A stretch of DNA of 63,916 bases, filler included, from Craspedostauros australis (lineage: Eukaryota): the NCBI GenBank assembly GCA_030167865.1. It is 10 parts of 10 records of this genome, joined end to end, with 100 filler letters (N's around TTAATTAATTAA, not from the genome) between each part and the next. Parts side by side here need not be neighbours in the genome. Positions count along the whole stretch, not along the records: positions 25,413 to 31,042 come from JALAGF010003886.1; 9 more parts are not named here. One strand, written 5' to 3'. The position numbers were made by a program, and so were the translations under genes. Of this stretch, positions 7,536 to 63,032 are shown one piece after another. Below the pieces are notes generated by a model. That model was not told the origin of the DNA and ran no database searches. It was given only the letters and a program-made list of their open reading frames with translations. Every line of letters begins with the position of its first letter. Position 1 is the first letter of the stretch.

Positions 7536-7635
7536 NNNNNNNNNNNNNNNNNNNNNNNNNNNNNNNNNNNNNNNNNNNNTTAATTAATTAANNNNNNNNN
7601 NNNNNNNNNNNNNNNNNNNNNNNNNNNNNNNNNNN
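7536..7635. other. Artificial contig linker N44-TTAATTAATTAA-N44 (also at 21756-21855, 25313-25412, 31043-31142, 34268-34367, 51068-51167, 57603-57702, 60654-60753, 62579-62678)
   Basis: Nine identical 100-nt spacers built on repeated TAA stops on both strands. ORFs are cut abruptly at them. Confidence 0.98.
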
Positions 7636-10314
7636 CAACCGCGGAAGACGGGTTCGATGCTTTGGCCAGAACAACGAGCACCAGCTCGAACCCGAACTCC
7701 AATGCCAACGCAGGTCCAACTGCGGATGCAGATGGCGCCACCACCGCCACCAGCAGCTTCACAAACCACAACAACAGCAACGTTGCGGGCAGGACGAAGT
7801 CACGGACATCTTCACTCCACGAAGTGTCAGACTTCTCTGATGGATCTGCATCCCCCATATCGATGTCCACACCAACACACACATCGACACATACCAACGC
7901 GAAGAAGACCAAGGCAAACAGTGCAAGCAGAAGCAGAAGCAGAAGCAATAGTCGAAGTAGCCACAGCCAACAGCGCCACGGCCGCCGCAAAGCAGCATCC
8001 CGCGACTCATCCGCTGTTGCGTCTCCTCCTCCTCTTCCTCCTCCTTCCAAAGCAACAAACGATGATACTGATGCAAACGTCAACACAGACGTCGACGACT
8101 GTGGCTTCAAACGAACCAACAGACGAACTGGACCTTACACGCACAAAGGCTTCAAACGACACTACGCAACCCACAACTACCATGACTATTCATACATCAC
8201 GCCGCAGCAAGCCATGGCATCCTTATCTTTGCCCAACTCAAAGACCGCCAATCGCAACAAGGGCGGCAAAGGCAACAACAGCAACAACAGCAGCAGCAAC
8301 ATGTCAGCCAGCACCATCCGCCAGCATCTGCAGCTCCAGCTTCCCACCACCGTCCGCGGCGGTGTCCAAACCCCCTTCCCCTTCATCCTCCACCAGATGC
8401 TCGAGGATGCATCCAAGCGGGGACACGAAGTCATCGTCAGCTGGCAACCGCACGGACGTGCTTTCCTCATCCACAACCCCAAGCAGTTCGCTGTCACGGT
8501 GCTCCCCACCTACTTCAAGCACTCCAAGATGTCCTCCTTCCAGCGTCAGCTCAGCCTGTACGGTTTCACAAGGTTGACGAGCAACACCACACCAGACCGT
8601 GGCGGTTACTACCACGAGCTGTTCCTTCGGGGACGCACCTTCCTATGTGCCTACCTGCAACGCACCCGCATCAAGGGAACGTGGATCAGGAAGTCATCAT
8701 CTCCGCAGTCGGAGCCTGACTTTTACACGATGGAGCCAGTGCCAGATCTTGTGCCGGCTTCTCCCATCGGCGCTGGTGATGTCGACGAAGACATGAACAA
8801 CGACACAGTGAGCGCAAGGATGAGGCACACACGCAGACACAGTGAGAACACTTCAAGCACTACCGATGTCTCTGTCGCTTCTGCTGGCGCTCACATCAGT
8901 CGCCAACACAGGAGGCGATCAACCGGAGTCGTTCCCAACTCGACATCCATGTCCACCATGTCCATGCCGACGCCAAGTCCGTTGCGCATGCCAATGTCGA
9001 TGGCAATGCCCACTTCTACCTTGACCTTCACAGGTGTCTCAGCTGGCGCTGATGCCACCGCTGCGACCACCACCAACGGAAATAGGAAGGACAGCACGGA
9101 AGACACACAGGAGACAAGCCTGGCGGACAGTCTCAAATCCCTCTCCTCCGCGTACATGGCAGAGCTTTCCAAGACAAGATCAGCAGCAATGTCGATGGTG
9201 ACCTCGACATCGGGATCTCGGCCCAGATCGATGTCGGTGCCAACTTCTATGACTGTATCGTCGCCAGCATCCGCATCAGCACCAGCATCGTTGGATACTG
9301 ATCATCACATGTGTGCTGGTGATGCTGTCGGTGTTCATCTCCATCAATCGACAAGAAACAAGAGCGTCAGCAAGATCGGCGAGTATTCCACGACGAAACA
9401 CACGATGCTGCAACCATCAAATCCATACGAGTACCAGTACCAGTACAAAGGTAAGTGAGCACCACCACCACCATTGTGATTATGATTACGACGATGATCA
9501 TCACTATGGTCTGTTTCTACTTCCTTCCGATGAGCAGAATCTGCGAATAACCAGCGCAGAAGAAGACGGGTGTTTCATAGACGAGTATTTCACAGACGAG
9601 TATTGTACAATCGGACGACTGTCTCCATGGAATACCAAACTTATGAATACCAAGGCCATCCACTCACACCCCCTCTCCACAAACCATCCATCTTCATCAT
9701 CCATCTACTAATACTCGCTCTGATTGACGATACCAACAGGCATGCCGCTGCAGATGATGCCGGCGCTGCGTGACCCAACACCACCGCAGACTCTGAGCAA
9801 TGCCAATGTGAAGATGTCCGAATTCAGTATCGACACGGCAACATGCGCTGGAAGCATCGTGATGCACAATCGGAACAAGCACGCCCAACATACATCATCC
9901 CAATACGAGGCGCAGCCGCATGACTCCTCAAACCAGAGCACAGACCACACAGCCAATCATTCCGGTGTGAGGAGCGCTGCTGCAACAGCCAATCACTCAG
10001 ACACGAACGCGAACACCACAACGAACGCAAACAACAGCAGCAGCAACAACAACAACAACGATCAGCTGTGCGATGCCATTGATCATGTGCTGGAGGCCAT
10101 GGAGACGTTGGAAGACATGGGCGATAACGATGGTAACGGCGATCATTCAGGCACGCACATCGACCAGCACGACAGACGCGTGCAGGCAACCGGGGCATCA
10201 ATGGAAGGGGGGATCGTCAAATCAGGATCGTTCATGTCGTATGGGGCTGAATCCGGTCTCGATACCTCCTTCGGCGAGAGTCTCGACTTCGATCCGATCG
10301 TCTTTTCGGTGTGA
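7636..10314 (+). CDS. Heat-shock transcription factor (HSF DNA-binding domain), 5'-truncated; intron 9451-9739
   Basis: GGVQTPFPFILHQML...IVSWQPHGRAF...YFKHSKMSSFQRQLSLYGF...YYHELFLRG. GTAAGT donor at 9451, CTAAT branch near 9708 and CAG acceptor at 9739; splicing joins the 7662 and 9724 ORFs in frame. Confidence 0.93.
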
Positions 10315-21755: not shown

Positions 21756-21966
21756 NNNNNNNNNNNNNNNNNNNNNNNNNNNNNNNNNNNNNNNNNNNNT
21801 TAATTAATTAANNNNNNNNNNNNNNNNNNNNNNNNNNNNNNNNNNNNNNNNNNNNACCACAGCAGGAGCGAAGGCACAAACGCAGGCATCAGAGATCTCA
21901 AGCAGAGAAAGCAAACAAAGGCAACGGCAATCAATCGACTTCTGTTCGGAGTCACTAACATTCACA

Positions 21967-25312: not shown

Positions 25313-25412
25313 NNNNNNNNNNNNNNNNNNNNNNNNNNNNNNNNNNNNNNNNNNNNTTAATTAATTAANNNNNNNNNNNNNNNNNNNNNNNNNNNNNNNN
25401 NNNNNNNNNNNN

Positions 25413-26702
25413 GGATGCCACAAGCCATGTCTGCGATATCCGAAATCCCCGATTCATCGACTACGCCATGAGGGTGAGATCGTACGATGTGGAGGCTAAT
25501 TTCTACGGCCGTGGATTTGCGTCAGGCAAGCCTTGTCCCGCCAGAGCAGCATCACGTGCGGGATTGGCCATTCCAACACTGCTGGCGATCGTGCTCACGC
25601 CGACGGACTAGCAGCAATACCGAAGACATCCACGGCGACCGGCACCAACAATGGTAGCCAAGGAAGCAAGAGCCCATCGGATATAACCTTTGCAGGAGTA
25701 TGCTTCATCATGTGTGATCTGCAAACCACGCACCCAGTCCATCCAGATGTTCTATCCATCCCGCAAGCCAAATCCGCCCTAGCTTGGCTGGCCAAGTTCC
25801 ACGCCAGGTTCTGGGAAGCCCCAAAGCTGACGAACGAATGGCCCGGCCAACTGGTGTGGGAGGAGGGGACGTTCTGAGCCGTACAGTACCGTCTCAAGCA
25901 GCAGTACTTCCCGAACACATACGCCAATGATTTCGAGTCCGCATGGAATCGAACGTTGCGATGGATGGCGGCACAGCGCAAGCTTCCGGAAGCAGTTCAT
26001 CTGTGCTCGAGAGAATCAATCCGTCTGTTCGGACGTCGCTTGAAGCGCGTCATACCTGTCATCTTTGAGGAGCTGCACCCTGCCCAATCAGCATCATCGA
26101 TCTATACCAACCTCTCTCCAGTGGTATACAACGCAGCAGCAGCAGCCGCCGCAAAAGGCGAGCGCAAGGACAAGTGCGACAGTAACCACGGCTTCCGGAG
26201 ACCGCGCAGTTATGTAACATTGGTGCATGGCGACTTCAAGGCCGCCAACATGTTCTTCGTGCCAGGCGTGGATGGAGACGATGCGTGCAACGATTCCGAT
26301 TCCTGTGCAGTCTGCGATTTGCAATTCACAGGTCCCAGACTCGGCGTGTGCGATGTTGCCTACTTGCTATTCCCGGACCCGAGGGTCTCGTATCTCGATG
26401 TCGAGCACGAATTGCTCTGTTGGTACTACGACAAACTGCAGAGCCAATGGATCGCCATGGACAAGGGATGCGATTTAGGCGAGACCTATCCGCGAGCACT
26501 GATGGAATGGCATTATCGTTTGGCGCAGATGGAATTCCTGGGGTACATGTTCACGAAGGGATGGGTTGCATCGTCCGCAAACGATGTCGAACTATTGCAA
26601 AGGTTGGATGAGTTGTTGTGCAAGCTGGATGGAGGAGAGTTGCTGGGAAGCAGCAACGAATATGCCCAGGCGCTGGCGACTGCATTAGTATCCTTCCGAT
26701 GA
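25413..26702 (+). pseudogene. EcKL/APH-like (ecdysteroid/choline kinase-like) phosphotransferase with frame change near 25590-25695 and in-frame TGA at 25875-25877
   Basis: RSYDVEANFY, FIMCDL, ALAWLAKFHARFW, Brenner motif TLVHGDFKAAN and VCDLQFTG...DVAYLL. The ORFs 25533-25877 and 25956-26702 are in the same frame, separated by a single TGA. Confidence 0.7.
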
Positions 26703-28094
26703 TGTCCCGAGGAGTGGAGCAAGTTGGTATTGGATTGAGCAGGATCGCAGTGGAGCAAATTGGAGCGCAACGGAGAGACTGTGGCTGTGGTTGTAATCGT
26801 GTTCCATTATTTACCCCCGCTTGATGCAGAGGGTACTGCCTTCGCTTGTGCCGATGTTCGTGCACAGGGTGTGCCCGAGTTGGCAAAACAGCACGAGCAT
26901 GTGTGCTCTCCATGCAGTATGCGTACTATTGCAATACGAGGCCATGTGAATTGTGTCAAGTGTCTGGTTGGATCATGCTTTGCCGACAACAGCGTCCGAG
27001 GCTACGGTGGCAGATTCCACCTTCATGAGGATTGTTCAGAATGCGGGTTGGATCGCGCCGCACCATTTAGTACTCTATCATGCTTCGATCTCACACTTCA
27101 CTTTGATCGGCTGTATCGGAGAGTTCCAATGGAGCACCGGCGCAGTGTCTGCCTGGTTTCATTGTTGTCGTTGCGTCCTCAGCCTGCCAGTATCCAATGG
27201 TCTCCAGGGAGAGAGCCCTCAACAATAGATGGTACTATGACTACTTCATTGATCGATAGGTGTTGTTGCAATGAGAGAGGATCCTGCTTCGTGGACGGAA
27301 CCGCAGGTGTCTTCCACTTTGGGAATAAGAACGTTGCGGAACACGAGCAGAACGTCGGGAACATGAACGGAACGCAAGTTTTCGGCGTTCTGTCCTCCTT
27401 GGCCAACAGGAGAAGGCCCAAGCCGAACCCAGAATGCTCGTCGATCCTGGTGACACCATGGATTTATCCTTGCGAAGGAACAAGCGCGGGCAAAACGTGG
27501 AGGGTCGCCAAGGGACCATTCCCCGGTTAGCTCTTTCGTGGAGTTGTTCCACGAGGTGAAGGGCGGGCCACGAAGCCCAAGTGAACATCATCAATCGAAG
27601 ACCCGCACAGAGAGAGCAAGTCCCGTTCGCAACAGACATCACCAAAAAACGATTCATGACCTCAAATATCTGTTGTCACTGGAGCACGCTTGTGCAGGAT
27701 CTTGTCATGTCTGCTCAGACAGTGGGGCTGGAGTCATCTTCCGTTGTTCACAGAGCGCTGAGCAAAAATGGCGAGGCGAAATGAAATGAGCGCCACAATG
27801 TCCCGCGTCCTACTGTGGCTTCGCCGTTGTTGCCACCTCCACGAAGTCGAAAGTTTCCGAGGTTTTTGGATCGCCCGCACCCCACTGCTTACTTTGGCGA
27901 GGATGCTGTGGCTAAACACACCCAAACAACAGCAGGGCATGATACAGATAGCATGAGATGAGTTTTTTTCCCTTCGAGCGATTCCTTGCCATCACCCACA
28001 AAATCGAGAACAGACCAAGCCAACTTGACTCAAGGCCAAAGCGCACACACAACAAGCAACAACAAGCAACAACAAGCAACAACAACACGCAACC

Positions 28095-30386
28095 ATGCCA
28101 CCCATGAAGAAAGACATCCTCGCTCTCGTCATCGCACAGAGCATCATCTGCAATGGCGTCGATGCCGTGCTCGACACGAGCGGTCGTACCAAGGTCGCCA
28201 CCGATCTCAACATCGATGTCGACATCAACGCTCTTCAAGCGAAGTTCGCCAAGCTGGCAGCTGAGCACAAGGCCAAAATCTTGGCGTTCAACTCCGCACA
28301 CGGCGACAACACCAAGATCGCAGCACAAGACACTGAGGACAAGGTGAACATGCTCCTCTCTGACACCTCCTCCATGCCCAACATCGACCATCTTGTTCCC
28401 AACTTCAAGGAAGCCAGCACTAAGACAGAGGCCAATACCAAGACAAGCAACTTCCATCGTCGACGTGCCACCTCTTCCACCAACACCAAGAGCGAGGACA
28501 AGAACAAGCTTGAGCGCAAGCTTGAGCACAAGTTCACCGATCTTGGCCGTCTTCAAGGCGCCACTGGTGATGTCGAGAAGGGCGCGTTGCTTGCGTCCAT
28601 CGCAGAACTTCATCCTGAGAAGACGGTCGAAATCCTCAATGTTCACAACCGCCAGCTCAAGTCCCCCAAGTCTGAGAAATCGTCATCAAAGGGAGCCAAG
28701 TCTGAGAAGTCTTCCAAGTCCAACAAGGCATTCAAGTCCTGCTTCACTGGAACGGCCGAAGATGTCACCGCGAAGTGTGCAGACGAGGAGGCTAATTGCT
28801 GTCAAGCACCAGACAATGAGATAGCTCCCGCGTGTGTGTGGGGCAGCGACCGACACGTGACGGTGTGCCCCAACTCCTGCAATGACAATTACTCTTGCGC
28901 ATTCAGTCCCAACGAGACAACGGCCATCACGATTGCTCCCTATGCTTGCAACGGTGTGGAAGCCTGTGCTGACATAGAGATATCAATTCCTTCTTACGCT
29001 TGCAATGGCCTCAGCAGTTGCACACGCAACACCGGTAAAGTCAATGAGCATTCTTGCAACGGCTACGGTAGTTGCTTCGACAACTCAGGCGATATCTCCG
29101 CATTCTCATGCATCGGGGAGGCTTCGTGTTACCAGAATGGGGGGGACATTAGTGAAAATTCTTGCACCACAGACGGAGCATGTTTCCTCAACCGAGGCGA
29201 CGTCAAGGAAAACGCGTGCGTGGGATATATTGCTTGCGCCCAGAACGAAGGAGATATCGCAAACGGAAGTTGTGTCGGTGAAGCTCCGTGCGCCCGAAAC
29301 ACTGGTAGCGTCGCCGCGGGGTCCTGCGGAGGTGAAGATGCGTGCATCCAAAACACTGGTCCCATCAGCATGGGATCCTGCATTGGAAGGCGTGCATGCG
29401 ACAAGCAGACTGGTAGCGTCGCCGCGGGGTCCTGCCACGGTGAAAATGCGTGCATCCAAAACACTGGTCCCATCAGCATGGGATCCTGCATTGGAAGGCG
29501 TGCGTGCGGTGTGCAGACTGGTAGCGTCGCCGCGGGGTCCTGCCACGGTGAAAATGCGTGCATCCAAAACACTGGTGCCATCAGCACGGGATCTTGCATT
29601 GGACCCACTACGTGTGCCATCAACAGAGGCGTGATTGCTGCAAACTCCTGCCTCGGCAACTTAACTTGCGCCGGGAACGCTGGCGACATCGGCCAGGACT
29701 CCTGCGAAGGTGAAATTTCCTGCTTCCAAAACACTGGTACTATCAGCATGGGATCCTGTGTTGGACCTTCTGCGTGCGCCATTAACACAGGCATGATCGC
29801 TGCATACTCCTGCCGTGGCAACTCAACTTGTAGCCAGAACGCTGGCGACATCGGCCAGGACTCCTGCCAAGGCCCATTCGCCTGCATCGGCAACGAGGCC
29901 GACGTGGGCACCGGGTCGTGCTACGACTTCGCAGCATGCTACCGCAACGCCGGAATGGTAGGGGACGGAGCCTGCCGTGGCGACTCAACTTGCGACGGGA
30001 ACGCTGGCGCCATCGGCCAGGACTCCTGCCAAGGTCCAATCGCCTGCTATGGCAACCAGGCCGACGTGGGCATCGGGTCGTGCTACGACTTCGCAGCATG
30101 CGGCTTCAACACCGGAATGGTAGGGGACGGAGCCTGCCGTGGCAACTCAACTTGCGCCGGGAACGTTGGCGCCATCGGCCAGGACTCCTGCCAAGGCCCA
30201 TTCGCCTGCTATGGCAACCAGGCCGACGTTGGCATGGGGTCGTGCTACGAAAACAGAGCATGCGGCTTCAACACCGGAATGGTAGGGGACGGAGCCTGCC
30301 TCGGCAATTTCTCGTGTTTCAGCAACTCTTACGTCATCCCCGATGGAGAGTGCATCGGTGTTGGAGCGTGCGGTGTGGTGCCATGA
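28095..30386 (+). CDS. Secreted Cys-rich tandem-repeat protein (about 28 x 18-aa NxGxIxxxSCxGxxACxx) with RXL site and Lys/Ser (KXXK) cluster; candidate cell-wall/biosilica protein
   Basis: Signal peptide ending GVDA; RKL and RQL motifs; KSPKSEKSSSKGAKSEKSSKSNKAFK; regular C-x5-C repeats to the C-terminus. Confidence 0.85.
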   Translation: MPPMKKDILALVIAQSIICNGVDAVLDTSGRTKVATDLNIDVDINALQAKFAKLAAEHKAKILAFNSAHGDNTKIAAQDTEDKVNMLLSDTSSMPNIDHLVPNFKEASTKTEANTKTSNFHRRRATSSTNTKSEDKNKLERKLEHKFTDLGRLQGATGDVEKGALLASIAELHPEKTVEILNVHNRQLKSPKSEKSSSKGAKSEKSSKSNKAFKSCFTGTAEDVTAKCADEEANCCQAPDNEIAPACVWGSDRHVTVCPNSCNDNYSCAFSPNETTAITIAPYACNGVEACADIEISIPSYACNGLSSCTRNTGKVNEHSCNGYGSCFDNSGDISAFSCIGEASCYQNGGDISENSCTTDGACFLNRGDVKENACVGYIACAQNEGDIANGSCVGEAPCARNTGSVAAGSCGGEDACIQNTGPISMGSCIGRRACDKQTGSVAAGSCHGENACIQNTGPISMGSCIGRRACGVQTGSVAAGSCHGENACIQNTGAISTGSCIGPTTCAINRGVIAANSCLGNLTCAGNAGDIGQDSCEGEISCFQNTGTISMGSCVGPSACAINTGMIAAYSCRGNSTCSQNAGDIGQDSCQGPFACIGNEADVGTGSCYDFAACYRNAGMVGDGACRGDSTCDGNAGAIGQDSCQGPIACYGNQADVGIGSCYDFAACGFNTGMVGDGACRGNSTCAGNVGAIGQDSCQGPFACYGNQADVGMGSCYENRACGFNTGMVGDGACLGNFSCFSNSYVIPDGECIGVGACGVVP
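29297..30310 (+). repeat. Coding minisatellite: 54-bp units with 108-bp (about 29297-29600) and 162-bp (about 29815-30310) higher-order repeats
   Basis: Near-identical blocks ACTGGTAGCGTCGCCGCGGGGTCCTGC and GGCCAGGACTCCTGCCAAGG recur at these periods. Confidence 0.9.
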
Positions 30387-30766
30387 ACAATCTCCACATT
30401 CGATGTCGATGTTCATCGTCGTCCCTGTTTCTGAAGAGCAAGAAAAAGCAATTGCAGAGTAAATCAATCGAATATATGACCAATTGGCACTCGGAAGGTC
30501 GACTAACCACTACTGTCCGAAAGCGCAAGTATCAACACATGTGCAGTTGTGGAGTATGTGTCTACGTCCTTCCCCCCACAATAACACCACACTAAGCCTA
30601 GCAAAATGTAGCCTTGCAGAGTACAGGTCAGGCTTCAATTCCACTTTCCTCCTTCTTCTTCGTATCCTCTTTGCCTGTCAGTATTGCTCCGTCTGGAGAA
30701 ATCATCTGTGATGATCGGGAGACGATACGGGATGTGTTGTGTGTGTGATGATTGTGGGATAATGTG

Positions 30767-30868
30767 GTATCCGAGAATCACATGCGGGACTCAACTGGTA
30801 TCCAAGACACGAATCGATCGACTCGAAGGTATCCGAGAGTCAGACATGTGACACGATCGTATCCGAGA
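30767..30868 (+). repeat. Four GTATCC(G/A)AGA motifs at 31/31/30-bp spacing with unrelated spacers
   Basis: Motifs start at 30767, 30798, 30829 and 30859. Confidence 0.8.
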
Positions 30869-31142
30869 CTGAGAAGGATCCCAGAAGCATAGCTCTACCG
30901 CCCCGCACAGTATACTACTTCAAATCGGATCCTGGAAGAGAGGCATGATTGGTTCAAGCGGTCCCGCCTACCAATGACACGGATGCACGATACATTCAAA
31001 CCAAAAGAGGAGAAACTTCAGATAGCAACGCGAATGCCAAGCNNNNNNNNNNNNNNNNNNNNNNNNNNNNNNNNNNNNNNNNNNNNTTAATTAATTAANN
31101 NNNNNNNNNNNNNNNNNNNNNNNNNNNNNNNNNNNNNNNNNN

Positions 31143-33180
31143 CCAGGATCGACGAGCATTCTGGGTTCGGCTTGGGCCTTCTCCTGTTGGCCAAGGAGGA
31201 CAGAACGCCGAAAACTTGCGTTCCGTTCATGTTCCCGACGTTCTGCTCGTGTTCCGCAACGTTCTTATTCCCAAAGTGGAAGACACCTGCGGTTCCGTCC
31301 ACGAAGCAGGATCCTCTCTCATTGCAACAACACCTATCGATCAATGAAGTAGTCATAGTACCATCTATTGTTGAGGGCTCTCTCCCTGGAGACCATTGGA
31401 TACTGGCAGGCTGAGGACGCAACGACAACAATGAAACCAGGCAGACACTGCGCCGGTGCTCCATTGGAACTCTCCGATACAGCCGATCAAAGTGAAGTGT
31501 GAGATCGAAGCATGATAGAGTACTAAATGGTGCGGCGCGATCCAACCCGCATTCTGAACAATCCTCATGAAGGTGGAATCTGCCACCGTAGCCTCGGACG
31601 CTGTTGTCGGCAAAGCATGATCCAACCAGACACTTGACACAATTCACATGGCCTCGTATTGCAATAGTACGCATACTGCATGGAGAGCACACATGCTCGT
31701 GCTGTTTTGCCAACTCGGGCACACCCTGTGCACGAACATCGGCACAAGCGAAGGCAGTACCCTCTGCATCAAGCGGGGGTAAATAATGGAACACGATTAC
31801 AACCACAGCCACAGTCTCTCCGTTGCGCTCCAATTTGCTCCACTGCGATCCTGCTCAATCCAATACCAACTTGCTCCACTCCTCGGGACATCATCGGAAG
31901 GATACTAATGCAGTCGCCAGCGCCTGGGCATATTCGTTGCTGCTTCCCAGCAACTCTCCTCCATCCAGCTTGCACAACAACTCATCCAACCTTTGCAATA
32001 GTTCGACATCGTTTGCGGACGATGCAACCCATCCCTTCGTGAACATGTACCCCAGGAATTCCATCTGCGCCAAACGATAATGCCATTCCATCAGTGCTCG
32101 CGGATAGGTCTCGCCTAAATCGCATCCCTTGTCCATGGCGATCCATTGGCTCTGCAGTTTGTCGTAGTACCAACAGAGCAATTCGTGCTCGACATCGAGA
32201 TACGAGACCCTCGGGTCCGGGAATAGCAAGTAGGCAACATCGCACACGCCGAGTCTGGGACCTGTGAATTGCAAATCGCAGACTGCACAGGAATCGGAAT
32301 CGTTGCACGCATCGTCTCCATCCACGCCTGGCACGAAGAACATGTTGGCGGCCTTGAAGTCGCCATGCACCAATGTTACATAACTGCGCGGTCTCCGGAA
32401 GCCGTGGTTACTGTCGCACTTGTCCTTGCGCTCGCCTTTTGCGGCGGCTGCTGCTGCTGCGTTGTATACCACTGGAGAGAGGTTGGTATAGATCGATGAT
32501 GCTGATTGGGCAGGGTGCAGCTCCTCAAAGATGACAGGTATGACGCGCTTCAAGCGACGTCCGAACAGACGGATTGATTCTCTCGAGCACAGATGAACTG
32601 CTTCCGGAAGCTTGCGCTGTGCCGCCATCCATCGCAACGTTCGATTCCATGCGGACTCGAAATCATTGGCGTATGTGTTCGGGAAGTACTGCTGCTTGAG
32701 ACGGTACTGTACGGCTCAGAACGTCCCCTCCTCCCACACCAGTTGGCCGGGCCATTCGTTCGTCAGCTTTGGGGCTTCCCAGAACCTGGCGTGGAACTTG
32801 GCCAGCCAAGCTAGGGCGGATTTGGCTTGCGGGATGGATAGAACATCTGGATGGACTGGGTGCGTGGTTTGCAGATCACACATGATGAAGCATACTCCTG
32901 CAAAGGTTATATCCGATGGGCTCTTGCTTCCTTGGCTACCATTGTTGGTGCCGGTCGCCGTGGATGTCTTCGGTATTGCTGCTAGTCCGTCGGCGTGAGC
33001 ACGATCGCCAGCAGTGTTGGAATGGCCAATCCCGCACGTGATGCTGCTCTGGCGGGACAAGGCTTGCCTGACGCAAATCCACGGCCGTAGAAATTAGCCT
33101 CCACATCGTACGATCTCACCCTCATGGCGTAGTCGATGAATCGGGGATTTCGGATATCGCAGACATGGCTTGTGGCATCC
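31143..33180 (-). repeat. 2038-bp inverted duplicate of 25413-27450 (unmerged contig overlap)
   Basis: All ORFs are mirrored with constant coordinate sum 58593 and identical translations. Both copies start at a contig edge. Confidence 0.95.
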
Positions 33181-33405
33181 GAAGCATTGATCCCCTTGCC
33201 GATGTTCTGCAAGATCAATTTCGCAATGATACGATGTTCACCCGTTTGTGGGATTGTATGGTGTCTGAGGGTCAGAAACAAATGGAATCCTAGCCTAACG
33301 CCCCAGGCAACATCATTCTTCACAGCGAGTTGGAATTCGTGTGCCTTTGCAGACGAACCGGAGGATGCCTTGTGGACTGCCGGCTTCAGATGAAGTCCGA
33401 TTGAT
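31891..33405 (-). pseudogene. Same EcKL/APH-like kinase locus, including its N-lobe (IIAKLI...RSYDVEANFY)
   Basis: Mirror of 25413-26702 plus a 5' extension. No ATG before an in-frame stop near 33410. Same TGA (32716-32718) and frame change. Confidence 0.68.
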
Positions 33406-34367
33406 GCAGTTCACTGGGCTTGAATATTGTTTACTGTAGGAGCTTGTAACAATGAATAGAGTAGAAGTGTTTGTACTAATCTGAACGGTTTTTATTATGA
33501 GTTAGAGTTGTAGTGGGCAGGACGAAGAAGCGATATTCATTGTGTTGGCACGGCTCTGCACTGATCTTCATGGTTCAGTGCTGAGAAGAGACTGTACTTT
33601 CCTCTTTATCCCTTCTCCTCTTGATTGCGGGCGAAGTCATGCAGGAGGTCTTGCAGCTTCAGCAGGTGTTGAAGCGATGGAAGCTATGCAGCCGGAGTCA
33701 GTAGCCTGGACTTGTGTCAGGATTCCATTGCTGATGTTGAAGCAGTTTGGATTGTTCATGATGAAGCTGGCGTAGCCAGCAGACATCGTGGCAGTAAAAG
33801 GGAATCCGAGTGAAGCCCGTTTAGTAAGATCTAATAGAGCCCAAACGTAATGGCTGTTGTCTTGTTGGCTGTTCTTTAGCTGTAGGGCAGAGGCTTGATT
33901 GACAAGCGGGTCCGAACGAGAGTCTTCTGTTCCACAAGTAGTCAATTGAGAATACTGGTAGATGGTGAAGAAACGTGCGGATTATGAGATTAGTGCTAAA
34001 GTTCTTCCCTGCAGGGAGGATCTCCTGTGGTGTCCTGAGTGACTGTGTGTATGGGTCGTGTAGCACAAGTACCATGGGTCAAGATCCCTTGGCTGAGTTC
34101 CGTGAGAGACAAGGGGCGATGATGTGCGTTGCTGGGGCACTGTTTCCATGTGCCGGCGTTTTGGCGATGATGGGTGTCAGTGGCTTGGTTATCGGAACCC
34201 TTCTGGTTCCTTGACAGGGTTCCAAAGATCTGCTTCAATGTTCTGGATCTGTCCCCAAACGTGGGGGNNNNNNNNNNNNNNNNNNNNNNNNNNNNNNNNN
34301 NNNNNNNNNNNTTAATTAATTAANNNNNNNNNNNNNNNNNNNNNNNNNNNNNNNNNNNNNNNNNNNN

Positions 34368-47944: not shown

Positions 47945-49726
47945 TCACTTTGGCTTCTTGGTCTTGCGGTTGTTGCGGAAAGTCTGTGCCGTCTTCGCCT
48001 GCGCCACGCTATCAGCGACGGTCTCCCATCCAAGCTCTTCGGGCGATGCGCGTTTGAGGAACCTGCCTCCTGATTCCTTCATCTTGTTGATAACGAGAAG
48101 CGTCAGGACAGTCTTCGTCGTTCGGTCCGCAGCGTCGTAGTCCGGCTGAAAGGACCTGATCAGTTCGCGGTGCTTTACGTTGCCTGTGTGGTCGCGGAAC
48201 GGACGACCGCGCCCGAGCAGGACGTCGGCCTCCGTTGGGTACGCCACGTACGCCGGTCTGCCTCCATCTGCTTTCTTCGAATGCACAGGCGACTGCCCTT
48301 TCTCTTGTTGCGATTGCTGCGATTGCCGCTGCTGCTCATGATCGTCGGCTGCGTGCCCTTCCTCCAGTTCTATCCGATGCAGGTAGGCATGAAAGTCAGC
48401 GGTCTTCATGCTGCCATTCTCCGTGAGGAAGAAGCGGTGCTCAGGAATGCCGTAGACCGTGAAGAGCTTGTACTGGCATTCCAAATGCGAGCCGAAATGT
48501 ATGGTCTGCCGCAGACGAATCTCCTTCGGCATTGTCATGATGACGATTCTGTTGAGCGCGGCCATGTTGGAATTGTCGAAGCAGAGGTGGGCAGCACCCA
48601 CGCGCATTGGCAAGGCGTTAATGAGGGTGGGCAGTTTCATGTTGAGCCTCATGTCGAAAATCTTGCTGACGTCCGAATCCACCATGTATCCGATCGCCGT
48701 TATCCCTAGCTTTTGGGTGATGATGTCCCTCTCGAGGTGGTGCATGAGGATGTAGATCATGGCGCGCATCTGACTGCCGACGGTGGTATAGTTGCGAAAA
48801 TTCATGCAGTCCAGCAGCACAGCACGGCCCGCCTTGTCTCGGCAATCGGAGCGAATTTGCAGGGCCCCGGTGGAGGCTGCGTTCCGATCGTCCTCGTTGA
48901 GATCCGCCATCCTGAGAGGACGCGCCAGCTGTTCGTAGCCGAACATCAAGGTCTTTAGGCGGAAGAAGGCCACCATCCTGCGTGCTGCCTTGCGCGGGCA
49001 GAACTCATCGGCACGCAGGAACATGAGCTGGAACTGGTGGTTCTTGACGTACTTGGGCGAGAGGAACGCCGCTTGCTCGTACTCCTGCTTGTCTCGGATG
49101 CGTGCGATTTCGGTCTTCAAAGACTCGATGGAGGATTTGACGAGCCCCGGCGTTTCCTCCTCGGCATCTGCATTCCCGATGATGTCGTTGCGTATCGCAG
49201 TCTGGTCTTGCAGCGACAGATTTCGGAATTCGTCGAGCAAATCGAAGTCGTTGGTGATCATCTTGTGCAGTCCCACGTCCTCGGCCTCGCTTCGTTTGGC
49301 CGTCGCATATCCAAGCCCACCTGCGGCTCGAGGTCCACCTGCATGCGCATGCACAACCGGAAATGCGCCCTGGATCCCCGAGATGGTCTGCTTGGGCTTC
49401 GAGCTGTTCGACACGACGGCCGTGTTGGCATGCGCGGGAGGTGTCTGCGCAGACGGCATGCAGAAGAACCGCGTCGAATCGGAGCTCACGCTGCTGTTGC
49501 AATCATCGAGGGAGAAGCAGGTGCGTTTGGCGCCGTACGCATCAAACGGGGACGCCGCCCTTTCCACGAACACTGTGGACGGAGGACCTTCCGGTGATTG
49601 CGCTTCGTGCCGTCTGGCCAGGATATCGACGCCATCTTCAGCATCGCCCGGTCTCTGCTGTGGTTGCGGCGACGGACCATTCACGCTTTCGCGTTGATGG
49701 ATCAAATCCAGCAACCGACGCTTCAT
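47945..49726 (-). CDS. CRAL-TRIO (Sec14-like) domain + C-terminal DUF6824 protein
   Basis: LMFLRADEFCPRKAARRM, RDKAGRAVL, LPMRVGAAHLC; C-terminal PTEADVLLGRG...HTGN...GGRFLK...W...KTAQTFRN. Confidence 0.85.
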   Translation of the reverse strand: MKRRLLDLIHQRESVNGPSPQPQQRPGDAEDGVDILARRHEAQSPEGPPSTVFVERAASPFDAYGAKRTCFSLDDCNSSVSSDSTRFFCMPSAQTPPAHANTAVVSNSSKPKQTISGIQGAFPVVHAHAGGPRAAGGLGYATAKRSEAEDVGLHKMITNDFDLLDEFRNLSLQDQTAIRNDIIGNADAEEETPGLVKSSIESLKTEIARIRDKQEYEQAAFLSPKYVKNHQFQLMFLRADEFCPRKAARRMVAFFRLKTLMFGYEQLARPLRMADLNEDDRNAASTGALQIRSDCRDKAGRAVLLDCMNFRNYTTVGSQMRAMIYILMHHLERDIITQKLGITAIGYMVDSDVSKIFDMRLNMKLPTLINALPMRVGAAHLCFDNSNMAALNRIVIMTMPKEIRLRQTIHFGSHLECQYKLFTVYGIPEHRFFLTENGSMKTADFHAYLHRIELEEGHAADDHEQQRQSQQSQQEKGQSPVHSKKADGGRPAYVAYPTEADVLLGRGRPFRDHTGNVKHRELIRSFQPDYDAADRTTKTVLTLLVINKMKESGGRFLKRASPEELGWETVADSVAQAKTAQTFRNNRKTKKPK

Positions 49727-51331
49727 TGGATCGTCTCTTCGCTCCTGCCTGCTGTGATGCTATTGCGAGTCTCTTGCGACGCTTCTGCTCTGCTTCTGCT
49801 GTCACTGCCGTACGAGTACTGGATGAGTACTGGACGAGTACTGGACGAGAACTGACCGATCTATGCTTTTGCTGGAACAGATCCGATGCCGCGACCAGAC
49901 TCCAGAAGATGCTGCTGAGGGACGAAGAGCGAACCCAGGCATGCGTGTGCAGATAGCAAGAAGGCAAGAGAGGAAGTGGTGAAGTACGACTACGCCCTAC
50001 AATCTGCGCGTATCGAAGGCAGAAGATGAGTAGAGCACTCTCGAGAGGGTGTTGCACGACCTACTATACGAACACCCCGAAGGCGTTCCTGTGTGCGTCG
50101 CAGATGTGTCACCTACCGTTGCGCATTCGTGGGCTCCCCCAGTTGTTGCGTTGCGTCTTCCGCGCTGAACTCCTGTGTCAACTGGGAGTGAGCAAACCTC
50201 CCTTGCGCGAGTGGCCTCTTGGGCACAAAGACACACAGGGACACAGACACACAGGCGCAAAATGCCCACGCCACCCTCAAACTTCTCGTTCTGGGACGAT
50301 CTACCACACACCCGACAGCGTCCCATGCGATTGTGGCGCTTTGGCAGGAAGCATCATCCCAGCACACCTATTCACTGACATCAAATGGAAATACGCTGCG
50401 ATGACAATGTTCTGAGAGTGGATTGTGTTACTCTTTCTCTCACTCTCTCACTCTCTCCATCAGCTTGTCGTTTGACTGCATATTTCTGTTATATTTCCTA
50501 GTCAAATTTCGCTCGATAGGGCTTACCTCTGTTGCCGTATGAATACAGACAGTGTGCTTCTCATTCGTGTTCAGCTGGCGCCAGAACTTAAAAACACACG
50601 AGCACAATGCTCGGAAGTGTGTTTAGTGTCCGCGGAAGTCTGGACTTGCATCAGGTATGTTGTTGATGTCTGATTCTCTGCGGCGTGTTTTCCTCTTGTT
50701 CTCTTTTCACGTTCTGACAGCCAAGTGAAGCGATCCCATGACTCAATCGCGAGTGTTGGTCGTATACGCTAGTGTCTTTTGGCTTGGGTGGAGGCCAATT
50801 TTTTTGGTAACCATTGGTAAAAATTGGTAACTAGTCGTATGAGTCAATTTCGCCGTAGACGCTGGTACATTTTGTACGTCAGTCCCACTCGAAGCGGCCC
50901 AAAAAACACCTTTTCTGCCACAAACCTCCTCGGCAAGTTCATGCCGCTCCTTTTGTTTGAGCTCTCCTTTTGTGAGCATTCGTATGTGTGGCTTTTAATC
51001 ACCCTCTCCAAGTTTGGCGGCGATTGGATGGGTAGTTGTCGAGATCTGCTCGTTTCTCTGGAGCAGGNNNNNNNNNNNNNNNNNNNNNNNNNNNNNNNNN
51101 NNNNNNNNNNNTTAATTAATTAANNNNNNNNNNNNNNNNNNNNNNNNNNNNNNNNNNNNNNNNNNNNACCCTCCTCAACAGACACAAGAGAGCCACTCGG
51201 GCACTCAAGCAATCATCGAAGTAGTCATTGGACAAGTCATCGAAATATTCATTGAAGTGGCCATCGAAGCAACCGATCGAGCGTTCACCCCAGTTAACCA
51301 ACGACCGAAGCAACCGTTGAATCAAGCAATC

Positions 51332-55867: not shown

Positions 55868-58691
55868 GGTTGTTGCAATACCAATTGCGGTTTTGTTAGT
55901 TTTGTTGGTGGTGTCGGTTGTTGTTGGTTGGTCAGGTGTGATGACGAACATTGGTGTCGCATTGATCATGAATTGGGCACATTCGACGATGTGCGCGATT
56001 GTGCATGTGTCCCATCATGCGTGTCACATTTTGTGATTCATGGTTCGTCGTTTCGGAAGCAGAAATGAGCCAATTTGACGAGGGGTTGATGATGACGACA
56101 ATAATGACGGTTGAGGATTACGGCGGTGCATGATTGGACGACGCAGAGTGCATTGTATTGTATTGCATCGTATTGTATGCATGACATTGCGTTTGTGTTG
56201 CATCGGATCGTGTGAATAGACGATGCGAATGTATGCGACGACCGTTGGATTGGATTTGCAATGCGGGTCGACGGAAGATCCGATATGGTGAATGTATTTC
56301 GGCACATGGATGAGTTGAGATGAAGGTGTACGGAGGCAGAAGTGAATCATGGACAGAGCAGCGGATACATTGAATTGCGTGATGGCGTGGCCGTTGGTAT
56401 GTGCGAGTGACGAGGGATTGGGCAAGAGAGTTGAGGTGAGAAAGATAGATATCATTTTTGCGATGTTGCGTAACTGTGGCTTCTCGGCTTCGCTTCGGCA
56501 ATGACGATCGTCATGATGGCCACGCTGCTCTGATCCATGGCTTGATGCATCTGTTGATCCATGCATGAACGAATGAACGAATGAACGGATGACGACCATT
56601 GTTGCATGCGCTACGGAGCGTTGCTGCGCCGCGACAAATGACAGTTGGCATTGACACGACAGGCGTCAAGAGAGCGATAATGACGACGGCGCCATGGTCG
56701 AGATCCACGATCCGTCTTTGGCGCGTCCGTTTCCGCCCAGTTGACACCACCGCCGTTGCTGGTGCTCAACATGGTCTGCGGCGAGCTCTTTTCTCGCAAA
56801 AGGGGGAGACGCGAGAGGACACGTACCATTCCGAGGATCATGGTGGCAGGTTGAGTTGTGCTCGAAGTCGAGTTTGTGAGGATTGACGTAAGACCGATCT
56901 CTGCAGTGTGGATGGATACGGAAGGTGCTGCCAATGCAAATGCGGTGGTTGCTGCATTTGCCTCCTCGCAATCCGCAAAGGAAGATCCGTCGGAAGATTG
57001 CAGCCAGGGCAGCCAATCAGACAGCGTGGGATGACACGGTGAAGCCATGATGCGACCGTTTTTGGTGTGGTTTTCGGTTGGGCTTCGATTTTCCCTCGCA
57101 GGCGTGTGAGCAAGTGTGTGCGCGTGTGTTCTGGGAGCAGGGGAAATAGTCGTCGCTCAAAAAAAAAGGCTGTTTTTATGCACTTGTTCACGAGCATTTC
57201 CCCGCATCAGACTGATACGACCAATGCTGTCAGGACGATGCAAAAAACACGCAAGTGGTATCGATAGTACTCCAATGGGAGTTGTTGTTGGCGTTTGTGC
57301 TCCTTGGTTTTGGTGGCGCCTACTGTGGTCGTTTGGTTCTGCGTTGGTTTCTGCGTCGTTCATGTCCTTCACACAGCACCGAGTGTTTCTCGGCGTTGGA
57401 CCCGCTTTCGTTGTCATCCGACGGGCGCGACACCCACAGTCATGCATTCGGTGTCTCTGTTCCATGCACGCAAATCGCCAACACAAATAGAGGAATCACC
57501 TGCTCGTGGTTCCTGGTCATCCTTCTGTGAACTCACAAGCGTGCGCTTGCTGTCTCGTTTCTGTGTCATTTGCCGTGCCAGGTTGCAGTCCATTTTGCGG
57601 TGNNNNNNNNNNNNNNNNNNNNNNNNNNNNNNNNNNNNNNNNNNNNTTAATTAATTAANNNNNNNNNNNNNNNNNNNNNNNNNNNNNNNNNNNNNNNNNN
57701 NNGCGGTGGAATTGCCTCCACACAAGTCCGCAAGCATTATTGCTGGCTCACGGAGAAGAATCGACATTTATGGCAACCATCGAAGAGGCGATCATCCAAG
57801 CCCCAAAACGCACCCAAGAAGGAAGCCTGGCGACACTCGCCAAGGCCGAACGCTTCTCAAGTCGGACCATCTGGACGAACAGCGAATAGTACGTGGTGCA
57901 GCAGAAGATAAATGGCTCTTCCGATCGATAATGAGTGGTTCATGGACACTTATCATCGCTGATTGTCGAGTGTCGCGAAATGTTATGTTGGATCGTGAAA
58001 GTGCACGGTTTGGTGGTAGGGTTAAGGATGACGTACAAGAGGGCGTTTGAATCTAACCCCTGCGTTCACAAATGATACGCTTTGGAGTTCTAGCAATCTT
58101 CGTGACGTTTGAAAGTTCTTCAACCGACGGCGGAATTTTGGCTTTGTGAATCATGTGCCGTGCTTGTCGTGAAGTTTCTGGAGTGCTATTTCGGTCATTC
58201 ATCTTGCGTTCCACGATTCCGTGTTGTTTGTGCGTGTTGTTTGTGCGCTTTGTGTTGTTGTCACGAGTAGATGCACAACGGTTGCAGAAAAGCCGCCACC
58301 AACATGGACTCTTGTGTTGTCTTGCGTTGTGTGTGGTGAAGTAATTGTAATTGTGCTGCTTTGCGTGGATGAAGATGATGATCGGATGTTGCGATGTTGT
58401 AACACTTGTATCGACGAGAGACCTCTCTGTGCTGAGAAGCGAACATGGACATGAACCGTGGATGTGTGCGTGGCTGGCGTAGCATTTGTACCATGTGTGC
58501 ACGCACAAGTATGTAGCATTGCCATGAGAGCATTATCGGATCGTCGCTCACTTTGTTGTCTTTCATTTTCATTCTTCACATCCATCCAACAAACATCCTC
58601 ATAAAACCCAAATTGAGAGCAAACCCAAGTCACACTCATCACAAGACAAGTACTCACTCTAACATTGCAAAGTGTTATTATCATAATCAGT

Positions 58692-60653: not shown

Positions 60654-60753
60654 NNNNNNNNNNNNNNNNNNNNNNNNNNNNNNNNNNNNNNNNNNNNTTA
60701 ATTAATTAANNNNNNNNNNNNNNNNNNNNNNNNNNNNNNNNNNNNNNNNNNNN

Positions 60754-62457: not shown

Positions 62458-63032
62458 CAGTGTACCCAAACCAGCACTGAAGGTCGGCGTGGCAACGTGC
62501 GATGGATCAAATGGGAGCAACATTGCGAGTGTCTGGGTTGAGTGTGGAGGACTACCTCCGGCAAGTATTTTTGGTTGANNNNNNNNNNNNNNNNNNNNNN
62601 NNNNNNNNNNNNNNNNNNNNNNTTAATTAATTAANNNNNNNNNNNNNNNNNNNNNNNNNNNNNNNNNNNNNNNNNNNNCCATTCACTCGCACCATCCTAT
62701 GGCGTGTACGTGTATTCTGCGATCTGCGTTTGTGGAGAGGGTGGTATCTACCTGCTCCGACTATCGCAAACTCGACAAGCATTCACGAAACACCATTCGT
62801 AAGCTAGTGCACGATCATATCCAGAAGTCTTAATGGGAGAGAGAAGGTCGCATGCCCGTGCAAACTGTGATCTGTTCTATTGTATTACATTCTTCAAATA
62901 TTCTTCAGAATGTCCACCCCACCTGAAAGTGGCACCACCGATCGGATCCTGCATACACACCCCTTCTCCGATTTCCCCATTGCTCCACCTCTCCATCCAT
63001 CCACGCATGTGAAAGTTGGACACCCAATGCCT

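What the first reader, a model, noticed from the sequence alone, without database searches (positions are those of the whole stretch)
28095..30386. Candidate biosilica-targeted disulfide solenoid: RXL + pentalysine cluster fused to about 28 Cys-rich 18-aa repeats
Seen: a signal peptide, a charged pro-like region, RQL at 28650-28658, and immediately after it 9 Lys in 26 aa in KXXK spacing (28659-28736). Then come about 28 repeats with C-x5-C and a near-invariant Asn. Known: RXL processing sites and Ser-rich KXXK/pentalysine clusters typify diatom silaffins and cingulins and can direct proteins to silica; those proteins are mostly disordered. Inference: cleavage at RQL would release a silica-targeting tag attached to a long, rigid, disulfide-stapled beta-solenoid. 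That could be a structural ruler, template or adhesin in the frustule.
Basis: partly seen in the sequence, partly recalled or inferred. Interest (0 to 1): 0.75.

Follow-up and report, generated by a model that had tools for sequence, protein, structure and literature searches.

The report
Secreted diatom cysteine-repeat solenoid, lysine tag
This is a real diatom gene for a secreted protein made of about 27 cysteine-braced coils behind a short lysine- and serine-rich block of the type that can steer diatom proteins into the silica cell wall, but nothing yet shows it goes there.

Summary
ORF 28095-30386(+) encodes 763 aa: a signal-peptide-like start, a charged region ending in RQL (28650-28658), 9 Lys and 9 Ser in the next 26 aa, an 8-Cys cap, then 28 C-x5-C units, 26 of them full 18-aa units (Asn10 in 23 of 26).

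The repeats are Pfam DUF7640 (E 3.8e-71), a catalogued but uncharacterised family. It occurs in diatoms and also in non-silicifying Chloroflexota.

Two AlphaFold models give a confident beta-solenoid but disagree on its handedness. Disulfides are inferred, not shown.

The Lys block matches the published pentalysine-cluster pattern twice. The same layout (signal peptide, variable region, RxL or a basic run, K/S block, CFTG cap) recurs in relatives from Craspedostauros australis and Stauroneis constricta.

Silica targeting stays a reasonable but untested inference, about 0.35-0.4. "Ruler" or "template" is speculation. The window is a chain of small contigs, so gene neighbourhood says nothing.

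Verdict: a new member of a known uncharacterised family and a good candidate cell-wall protein. Moderate interest.

The parts
28095..30386 (+). Complete CDS, 763 aa plus stop; protein P0001
   Evidence: Both termini align with transcript-derived P0003. tblastn finds no second copy in the window.
28095..28166 (+). Signal-peptide-like N-terminus, aa 1-24. It consists of KK, the hydrophobic ILALVIAQSIIC and VDA; cleavage after Ala24 is inferred.
   Evidence: Hydropathy scan. The motif is conserved in P0003, P0010 and P0070. No SignalP was run.
28167..28658 (+). Variable charged pro-like region, aa 25-188, ending in RQL (28650-28658). It is partly helical in the model and of low confidence.
   Evidence: It aligns poorly among relatives except for a short LHP/LHA motif and the terminal RxL.
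28659..28736 (+). Lys/Ser cluster, aa 189-214 (9 K, 9 S). It holds two overlapping pentalysine-pattern matches at aa 199 and 202 and six K-[ASQ]-x-K tetrads. It is predicted to be disordered.
   Evidence: pLDDT is below 50 for aa 183-216.
28740..28946 (+). Cys-rich N-terminal cap, aa 216-284: CFTGT..V..C..CC..C..VC..C-x5-C. It includes the first, irregular 23-aa unit at aa 262.
   Evidence: C216, F217, T218, G219, C228, C235, C236, C258, C262 and C268 are invariant in the 5-sequence alignment A2. Model confidence is low here.
28947..30383 (+). 26 full 18-aa units plus an 11-aa end piece, consensus C-x-G-x-x-A-C-x-x-N-x-G-x-(I/V)-x-x-G-S. This is Pfam DUF7640 and the predicted beta-solenoid.
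   Evidence: for sequence; for structure.
29301..29603 (+). Recent internal tandem duplication: period 108 nt (two units), 2.8 copies, 93% matches.
29809..30307 (+). Recent internal tandem duplication: period 162 nt (three units), 3.1 copies, 90% matches.
   Evidence: Pairwise dN/dS is 1.5-1.8, but on only 2-3.5 synonymous changes.

Best explanation
This is an intact, single-exon diatom gene for a secreted pre-pro-protein of the DUF7640 family.

Proposed sequence of events:
1. A signal peptide takes the protein into the ER (inferred).
2. A variable region of about 165 aa is removed at RQL, as at the RXL sites of other diatom wall proteins (inferred, not shown).
3. This leaves a disordered Lys/Ser block at the new N-terminus. 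The block meets the pentalysine-cluster criteria.
4. The block is attached through an 8-Cys cap to a rod of about 27 stacked 18-residue coils. At the usual 4.8 A rise per coil the rod would be about 13 nm long; this figure comes from general beta-helix geometry, not from a measurement.

The two invariant Cys per coil most likely form disulfides in the oxidising secretory pathway (inferred).

Most likely role: an extracellular cell-wall (frustule)-associated structural or surface protein. Its cationic block would provide targeting or electrostatic attachment to silica or to the anionic wall matrix.

Graded confidence:
- real secreted DUF7640 solenoid: about 0.9
- the Lys block is a functional, conserved module: about 0.6
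- it actually directs the protein into or onto biosilica: about 0.35-0.4

The array was lengthened recently by tandem duplication of 2-unit and 3-unit blocks.
For: Family: Pfam DUF7640 at 237 bits against a cut-off of 28.1, in 7 stretches. There are 360 relatives at E<=1e-3 among 1.84 billion representatives, the best being P0003 at E 5.5e-50 and 46% identity.

Diatom origin:
- Named relatives are Craspedostauros australis, Stauroneis constricta (two), Thalassiosira exigua, Skeletonema dohrnii and Seminavis robusta.
- Every named top hit of an H+-PPase ORF on another piece of the window is a diatom.

Solenoid:
- Full-length model, pLDDT 88-97 over aa 440-640.
- Model of aa 483-763, mean pLDDT 83.3, pTM 0.79.
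- All leading VIA matches are beta-helices: 8egr Z 18.1 with 376 aligned at 4.3 A, and 7akv Z 17.3 with 291 at 3.6 A; 2iu8 LpxD Z 13.9 with 192 at 3.3 A, and 1m8n spruce budworm antifreeze Z 9.5 with 106 at 2.6 A.

Extracellular setting: family members combine the repeat with FG-GAP, PT, proprotein-convertase P, Big_1 and TSP_3 modules.

Lys block:
- Two matches to K..K..K.{1,2}K..K. That pattern is reported in 29% of silica-associated proteins against 1.5% of background proteomes (bioRxiv 10.1101/2021.09.18.460806, passage).
- Five K within 12-14 aa.
- Predicted to be disordered.

Conserved layout: RQL, RDL or RRRL precedes a K/S-rich stretch directly before CFTG in P0001, P0003 and P0070. 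P0010 has RRR then AKSSKASK. Thalassiosira exigua P0108 has RRISKKSKSKGDKESKSRSTKSSKAK before CFQG.

RXL as a processing motif of diatom wall proteins: PMC5501833 and PMC9650480 (passages).
Against: - No localisation, proteomic or expression datum exists for this protein or for any DUF7640 protein in what I could search.
- The strict pentalysine pattern is in only 2 of 151 family proteins, P0001 and P0024. The closest relatives P0003 and P0010 are K/S-rich but fail both strict definitions.
- The pattern also occurs in 1.5% of background diatom proteins.
- In cingulin CinW2, deleting or mutating two lysine-enriched regions did not change targeting, and two other such regions did not target GFP to the frustule (PMC9650480).
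- The main text of the three-species silica proteome preprint mentions cysteine once and no solenoid, so no Cys-repeat family is reported there. Its supplements could not be read.
- The repeat also occurs in Chloroflexota, which do not silicify.
- The two AlphaFold models disagree on handedness. The full-length model superposes on right-handed helices at 3.5-4.3 A and on left-handed acyltransferases only at about 11 A. The C-terminal model does the reverse.
- The whole N-terminal region is K-rich: 9.2% of its shuffles reach 9 K in 26 aa.
Confidence: 0.42

Rival explanations
1. It is a secreted extracellular-matrix or adhesion protein of a benthic raphid diatom (mucilage, trail or cell-surface coat) that is not embedded in or targeted to silica. 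The Lys/Ser block would then act as a flexible cationic linker that binds anionic, sulfated or carboxylated polysaccharides, or it would be simply a spacer after propeptide removal.
For: - The closest named relatives come from benthic raphid pennates: Craspedostauros, Stauroneis and Seminavis.
- Cys-rich repeats and beta-solenoid (CAA) domains are components of C. australis adhesive trails (bioRxiv 10.1101/2023.03.06.531300, passages).
- The best structural matches include bacterial adhesins and autotransporter passenger domains: EtpA, Ag43, UpaB, PfbA and HMW1.
- Partner modules in the family (FG-GAP, TSP_3, Big_1, PT) are typical of matrix and adhesion proteins.
Against: - None of the eight trail proteins described in that preprint is reported with this repeat. 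The repeats it describes have six Cys each or are DUF4215.
- The K-x-x-K spacing with Ser is the silaffin-type signature rather than a generic basic linker.
- Family members also occur in centric, non-gliding diatoms: Thalassiosira exigua and Skeletonema dohrnii.
Confidence: 0.33
2. The Lys/Ser block is drifting low-complexity sequence with no targeting role, and the protein's function resides wholly in the solenoid, for example as a ligand-binding or shielding surface protein.
For: - The N-terminal region aligns poorly among relatives.
- Only 8 of 151 family proteins have even two K..K motifs within 10 aa.
- 9.2% of shuffles of the N-terminal region reach the same Lys density.
Against: - A K/S-rich stretch is kept at the same position, directly before the cap, in four proteins from three species despite 26-37% overall identity.
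- The regular pattern arises in only 1.2% of region shuffles.
Confidence: 0.15
3. It is an ice-binding or other crystal-face-binding beta-helix, by analogy with insect and bacterial beta-helical antifreeze proteins.
For: Structural matches to spruce budworm antifreeze 1m8n (Z 9.5, 2.6 A, 106 aligned) and to the bacterial Ca-dependent antifreeze 3p4g (Z 11.6, 3.5 A, 239 aligned).
Against: - There is no Thr-x-Thr ladder. Position 11 is Thr in only 11 of 26 units and the neighbouring positions vary.
- A shared beta-helix fold carries no functional information, and the tool warns that repeats give middling Z values.
Confidence: 0.03
4. It is an artefact: a spurious ORF, or a repeat array inflated by misassembly in a fragmented draft.
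For: - The window is a chain of short contigs joined by N44-TTAATTAATTAA-N44 linkers.
- The array is the longest of 151 proteins, 28 units against a median of 7.
- The internal duplications are 90-93% identical.
Against: - The frame is open for 763 codons and matches a curated HMM at E 3.8e-71.
- Both termini match a transcript-derived relative.
- The duplicated blocks differ at 7-10% of bases, which is enough to assemble, and they keep every Cys.
Confidence: 0.03

Closest known systems
Pfam DUF7640 (PF24646) proteins, e.g. Craspedostauros australis UniRef100_A0A7R9ZT78 (P0003/P0152)
   Same: It has the same 18-aa C-x5-C repeat (237 bits). With P0003 it also shares the signal peptide, the RxL, the K/S-rich stretch, the CFTG cap and the C-terminal end motif.
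   Different: It has 28 units against 12 in P0003 and a family median of 7. The strict pentalysine pattern is present here but not in P0003. The family has no described function and no paper was found.
Silaffins and silaffin-like (KXXK / pentalysine-cluster) proteins of Thalassiosira pseudonana
   Same: All have a signal peptide and an RXL motif. The Ser-rich K-x-x-K cluster fits the pentalysine definitions.
   Different: Silaffins show no sequence similarity to one another or to other proteins and are heavily modified, low-complexity proteins. Here the cluster is 26 aa of 763, and about 70% of the chain is a folded Cys-repeat domain. No modification or silica association is shown.
Cingulins (CinW/CinY) and their lysine-enriched regions
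   Same: The K-(S/G)-x-K clusters have a length comparable to the listed regions, which are 11-40 aa (PMC9650480 Table 1).
   Different: There is a single cluster, with no Trp- or Tyr-rich domains beside it. The first 215 aa contain no W or Y, and the rest has 1 W. That cingulins alternate K/S-rich and aromatic-rich domains is recalled, not taken from a call.
Frustulins (acidic Cys-rich ACR domains)
   Same: Both are secreted, Cys-rich, repetitive diatom wall-type proteins with a pre-sequence: an ER signal plus a second part (PMC4712521, passages).
   Different: The ACR hexapeptides CQGDCD and VPGCSG are absent: C.GDCD, VPGCSG and even C..C each have 0 matches. There is no polyglycine or Trp-rich domain.
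Left-handed beta-helix hexapeptide-repeat proteins (LpxA, LpxD, GlmU) and the spruce budworm antifreeze protein
   Same: Both have 18 residues per coil. The pattern of I/V, then small or Gly, then S/A four residues later resembles the hexapeptide rule (the rule itself is recalled). The C-terminal model superposes at 3.0-3.3 A over 172-192 residues.
   Different: - No Hexapep hit in Pfam at E<=1.
- hhalign probability is 0.1% against two hexapeptide proteins from genome G001.
- The full-length model has the opposite hand.
- There are two Cys per coil.
CAA-domain beta-solenoid adhesive trail proteins (CaTrailins) of Craspedostauros australis
   Same: Both are secreted diatom beta-solenoid proteins whose domain also occurs in bacteria (bioRxiv 10.1101/2023.03.06.531300, passages).
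   Different: The domain is a different Pfam family (PF20597 against PF24646). No PTS-rich mucin regions are present. Neither trail association nor gene transfer was tested here.

Membership tests
Pfam DUF7640 (PF24646) | Score above the curated gathering threshold of the family HMM | tested here: met
   237.4 bits against 28.1, E 3.8e-71, 7 stretches. 19 of the 20 relatives scanned also match; P0031 does not.
Silaffin-like / pentalysine-cluster biosilica proteins | [quoted passage not shown] | tested here: inconclusive
   The hand-made hydropathy and -3/-1 check is positive, and no second hydrophobic stretch is found. No dedicated predictor was available.
Silaffin-like / pentalysine-cluster biosilica proteins | Pentalysine cluster: 5 non-consecutive K in 12-14 aa, or the pattern K..K..K.{1,2}K..K | tested here: met
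   Four windows with 5 K in 13-14 aa are listed from aa 189. The pattern matches twice, at aa 199 and 202.
Silaffin-like / pentalysine-cluster biosilica proteins | RXL processing site that is actually cleaved | not testable with these tools
   The motif is present at aa 186-188 and also as RKL at aa 141. Cleavage needs protein chemistry.
Silaffin-like / pentalysine-cluster biosilica proteins | Physical association with biosilica; polyamine- or methyl-modified Lys and phospho-Ser | not testable with these tools
   No proteome or localisation data were reachable.
Silaffin-like / pentalysine-cluster biosilica proteins | Repeated KXXK with X = S or G, separated by 1-6 residues (screen of PMC5501833) | tested here: not met
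   Only KSSK has both X as S or G. The other tetrads are KSPK, KSEK, KGAK, KSNK and KAFK.
Frustulins | ACR domains with the hexapeptides CQGDCD and VPGCSG | tested here: not met
   0 matches to C.GDCD or VPGCSG. The motifs are from PMC4712521.
Hexapeptide-repeat left-handed beta-helix (Pfam Hexapep, PF00132) | Sequence match to the hexapeptide profile or to member proteins | tested here: not met
   No Hexapep hit at E<=1. hhalign of A3 against a GlmU-like and an acetyltransferase-like ORF from G001 gives probability 0.1%.
Hexapeptide-repeat left-handed beta-helix (Pfam Hexapep, PF00132) | Left-handed 18-residue coil fold | tested here: inconclusive
   The C-terminal model fits LpxD and LpxA at 3.0-3.3 A. 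The full-length model fits them only at about 11 A and fits right-handed helices at 3.5-4.3 A.

The most novel reading that the evidence does not exclude
A subfamily of DUF7640 proteins in raphid pennate diatoms consists of rigid, disulfide-braced beta-solenoid rods anchored in the silica by a silaffin-type pentalysine tag. The tag would be exposed by RXL cleavage. The rods would act as fixed-length spacers or templates during frustule morphogenesis. Tandem gain and loss of coils (12 in Craspedostauros, 28 here, about 6 nm against 13 nm) would give a simple genetic way to tune a nanoscale dimension of the wall.
Probability: 0.06. Interest if true: 0.8.

Novelty: new member of a known kind. Interest (0 to 1): 0.4.

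Why it matters
Most proteins known to enter diatom silica are disordered and species-specific, which makes their mechanism hard to study. A folded, rod-like protein carrying a silica-targeting-type tag would be a tractable probe: its length is countable in coils and varies naturally between species. It would also give the first functional lead for Pfam DUF7640. Separately, an 18-residue-per-coil solenoid with two Cys per coil is structurally uncommon for a eukaryotic secreted protein and could serve as a stable scaffold for display on biosilica. If the tag proves irrelevant, the gene is one more uncharacterised secreted repeat protein.

Tried and rejected
- Whole-genome search: no genome is held for this window.
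- Sequencing runs for 27900-30700: none was listed and no RNA holder was listed. Read laying was therefore not used, and this gives no evidence on expression.
- Word-based homolog search with the full protein: 1 hit, P0002.
- The same search with aa 1-300: 0 hits at E<=0.01 among 2154 candidates, although P0003 exists. This is a limit of the tool, not evidence of absence.
- Exact look-up: P0001 is not in the 15-billion collection. The ESM Atlas gave only a 0.77 lead to a DUF7640 cluster.
- PDB by sequence: 0 hits at E<=1.
- Foldseek against PDB: no match at E<=1e-3 for either model.
- NCBIfam: only noise, SclB at 16.9 bits against a cut-off of 325.
- The search for related loci with alignment A1 failed because no block was conserved enough. 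With P0004 it found two Chloroflexota loci.
- Earlier notes of this scan: nothing on this genome, family or sequence.
- Literature: 0 papers for DUF7640, for PF24646/DUF7633/PF24636, and for diatom + frustule + 'cysteine-rich repeat'. The 3 papers found for diatom + solenoid + biosilica were irrelevant. The journal version of the three-species proteome paper was not in the library.
- Plastid targeting was considered because P0010 has Phe after VDA. It was rejected because P0001 has Val there, acidic residues follow, and the protein has 63 Cys in an extracellular-type domain. The rule for the residue after the cleavage site is recalled.
- Gene neighbourhood was rejected as evidence because the window is a chain of contigs.
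- dN/dS between internal repeat blocks: 0.5-1.8, on too few changes to interpret.
Full report
**1. What is there**

The + strand carries an uninterrupted ORF from ATG 28095 to the stop at 30384-30386, 763 aa (P0001). Its parts are as follows.
- aa 1-24: basic residues (KK), then a hydrophobic stretch, then V-D-A. This looks like a signal peptide. The judgement rests on a hydropathy scan only.
- aa 25-188: a charged but roughly neutral region (D12+E11 against K17+R7). It ends in RQL at nt 28650-28658.
- aa 189-214: KSPKSEKSSSKGAKSEKSSKSNKAFK, with 9 K and 9 S.
- aa 216-284: a cap with eight Cys that starts CFTGT.
- aa 285-763: 26 full 18-aa units plus an 11-aa end piece. One irregular unit starts at aa 262, which gives 28 C-x5-C in all.

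In the 26 full units, C1, C7 and I/V14 are invariant. N10 is present in 23, G3 in 22, G12 in 21 and S/A18 in 25.

**2. Is it more than chance, and is the gene real?**

Only 1 of 20000 shuffles of the whole protein reach the Lys density or the pentalysine pattern. The entire N-terminal region is K-rich, however. When only aa 25-215 is shuffled, 9.2% of shuffles reach 9 K in 26 aa and 1.2% give the pattern.

The frame is confirmed in two ways. It matches a curated HMM. Both of its termini align with a transcript-derived relative, P0003.

Two internal tandem duplications explain why the array is the longest of the 151 proteins compared, 28 units against a median of 7. One has a 108-nt period (29301-29603, 93% matches) and the other a 162-nt period (29809-30307, 90% matches). 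Differences between the duplicated blocks spare every Cys. The dN/dS values of 0.5-1.8 rest on too few changes to interpret.

**3. Context**

The window is not one molecule. Nine N44-TTAATTAATTAA-N44 linkers join about ten contigs, and the gene's own piece is 25413-31042. The perfect 2038-nt inverted match between 25413-27450 and 31143-33180 is an overlap between the ends of two adjacent pieces. Neighbouring genes therefore say nothing about function.

The other pieces carry an HSF domain, two DUF6824 proteins and an H+-PPase. Every named top hit of the H+-PPase is a diatom. No whole genome is held for this window.

**4. Family**

The repeats are Pfam DUF7640 at 237 bits, E 3.8e-71. A full HMMER pass over 1.84 billion representatives gave 360 relatives at E<=1e-3, 109 at 1e-10 and 5 at 1e-30. 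The best is P0003 at 46% identity.

Named relatives are all diatoms or Chloroflexota:
- Diatoms: Craspedostauros australis, Stauroneis constricta (two), Thalassiosira exigua, Skeletonema dohrnii and Seminavis robusta.
- Chloroflexota: Thermoflexales/Anaerolineae proteins fused to proprotein-convertase P domains, Ca. Brachythrix odensensis, and a Limnocylindrales MAG.

Most hits are unnamed metagenome or transcriptome proteins, so the true range is unknown. Partner domains in the family (FG-GAP, PT, P domain, Big_1, TSP_3) are all extracellular. I found no paper on the family.

**5. Structure**

The full-length AlphaFold model (36-row alignment) is confident for aa 440-640 (pLDDT 88-97) and moderate for aa 310-420. 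It is poor for the N-terminal region, the Lys block (below 50), the cap and aa 646-763. A second model of aa 483-763 (30-row alignment) reaches mean pLDDT 83.3 and pTM 0.79. Together they cover aa 310-760 as one periodic coil stack.

Foldseek finds nothing at E<=1e-3 for either model. VIA-align finds only beta-helices:
- Full-length model: 8egr Z 18.1 with 376 aligned at 4.3 A, 7akv Z 17.3 with 291 at 3.6 A, pertactin Z 15.3 with 313 at 4.0 A. Left-handed acyltransferases fit only at about 11 A.
- C-terminal model: the reverse. LpxD Z 13.9 with 192 at 3.3 A, LpxA Z 11.2 with 172 at 3.0 A, spruce budworm antifreeze Z 9.5 with 106 at 2.6 A. Right-handed helices fit at about 11 A.

So a solenoid is well supported but its handedness is unresolved. 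The 18-residue period and the I/V, small, then S/A spacing favour a hexapeptide-like left-handed coil. No sequence relationship to hexapeptide proteins is detectable, though (hhalign probability 0.1%).

**6. The Lys block**

It satisfies two published definitions of a pentalysine cluster. One is 5 non-consecutive K in 12-14 aa (PMC9650480 and PMC5501833, passages read; tested). The other is the pattern K..K..K.{1,2}K..K, which it matches twice. That pattern is reported in 29% of silica-associated proteins against 1.5% of background proteins (bioRxiv 10.1101/2021.09.18.460806, passage read).

The positional conservation is more telling. A short LHP/LHA motif, then RxL or a basic run, then a K/S-rich stretch lies directly before the invariant CFTG in four proteins:
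- P0001: RQL
- P0003: RDL
- P0070: RRRL
- P0010: RRR followed by AKSSKASK

These four proteins are otherwise only 26-37% identical. A Thalassiosira exigua member has a similar block before CFQG. The Chloroflexota protein P0004 has no Lys at all in its N-terminal region.

Several points count against a silica role:
- Only 2 of 151 family proteins match the strict pattern, and only 8 of 151 have two K..K within 10 aa.
- P0003 and P0010 fail the strict definitions.
- Lysine-enriched regions were dispensable, or on their own insufficient, in some cingulin constructs (PMC9650480).
- The three-species silica proteome text reports no Cys-repeat family.

**7. Reading**

With high confidence this is a real, secreted, Cys-rich beta-solenoid protein of a catalogued but uncharacterised family. 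With moderate confidence the K/S block after RxL is a conserved functional module of a raphid-diatom subfamily. Whether it targets silica (about 0.35-0.4), binds the organic wall or mucilage matrix (about 0.33), or is a mere linker (about 0.15) cannot be decided here. 'Ruler' or 'template' is a bold but permitted extrapolation (about 0.06).

It is not a frustulin, because the ACR motifs are absent. It is not a cingulin-type protein, because there are no aromatic-rich domains. It meets only some of the silaffin-like screen criteria.

**8. Verdict**

This is a new member of a known, uncharacterised family and a reasonable candidate for experimental localisation. Interest is moderate.

Noticed in passing
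window 7536-7635, 21756-21855, 25313-25412, 31043-31142, 34268-34367, 51068-51167, 57603-57702, 60654-60753, 62579-62678: Nine N44-TTAATTAATTAA-N44 linkers show that the window is a chain of about ten small contigs. Adjacency across the linkers is not biological.
   Followed up: yes
window 25413-27450 and 31143-33180: There is a perfect 2038-nt inverted match between the start of the gene's contig piece and the start of the next piece. It is most simply an unmerged end overlap. If so, the reverse complement of 33181-34267 is the true upstream continuation.
   Followed up: partly
window 25878-26702 (+): The upstream open frame of 274 aa contains ...VTLVHGDFKAANMFF..., which looks like a small-molecule kinase (phosphotransferase) motif. 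That resemblance is recalled. The frame was not scanned against Pfam.
   Followed up: no
window 47948-49726 (-) and 58692-60221 (+); 7863-9455 (+): Two DUF6824 proteins (one with two copies of the domain) and an HSF-type DNA-binding protein lie on other contig pieces.
   Followed up: no
L001 2001-5369 (Ca. Brachythrix odensensis MAG); L002: Chloroflexota carry long DUF7640 arrays fused to three proprotein-convertase P domains. P0004 is the second-best hit to the diatom protein, at E 3.6e-38. This patchy diatom-plus-Chloroflexota range recalls the bacterial origin proposed for diatom CAA trail proteins. No tree was built.
   Followed up: partly
P0001 aa 547-649 in models md009b9739791 and md2bf664ccc0a: Two AlphaFold runs on overlapping parts of the same repeat array, each confident, give solenoids of opposite hand, judged from which PDB helices superpose. 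This is a caution for any structure-based reading of this family.
   Followed up: partly
P0024 (unnamed, 1266 aa): A family member has a strongly silaffin-like run, KASKAKSSKAGKAKSSKAGKGAKSSKAG, far upstream of FG-GAP repeats, PT linkers and a C-terminal DUF7640 array. It is the only other strict pentalysine-pattern match among the 151 proteins.
   Followed up: partly
P0002 (unnamed, 457 aa): DUF7640 is combined with a second uncharacterised C-terminal domain, DUF7633 (PF24636).
   Followed up: no
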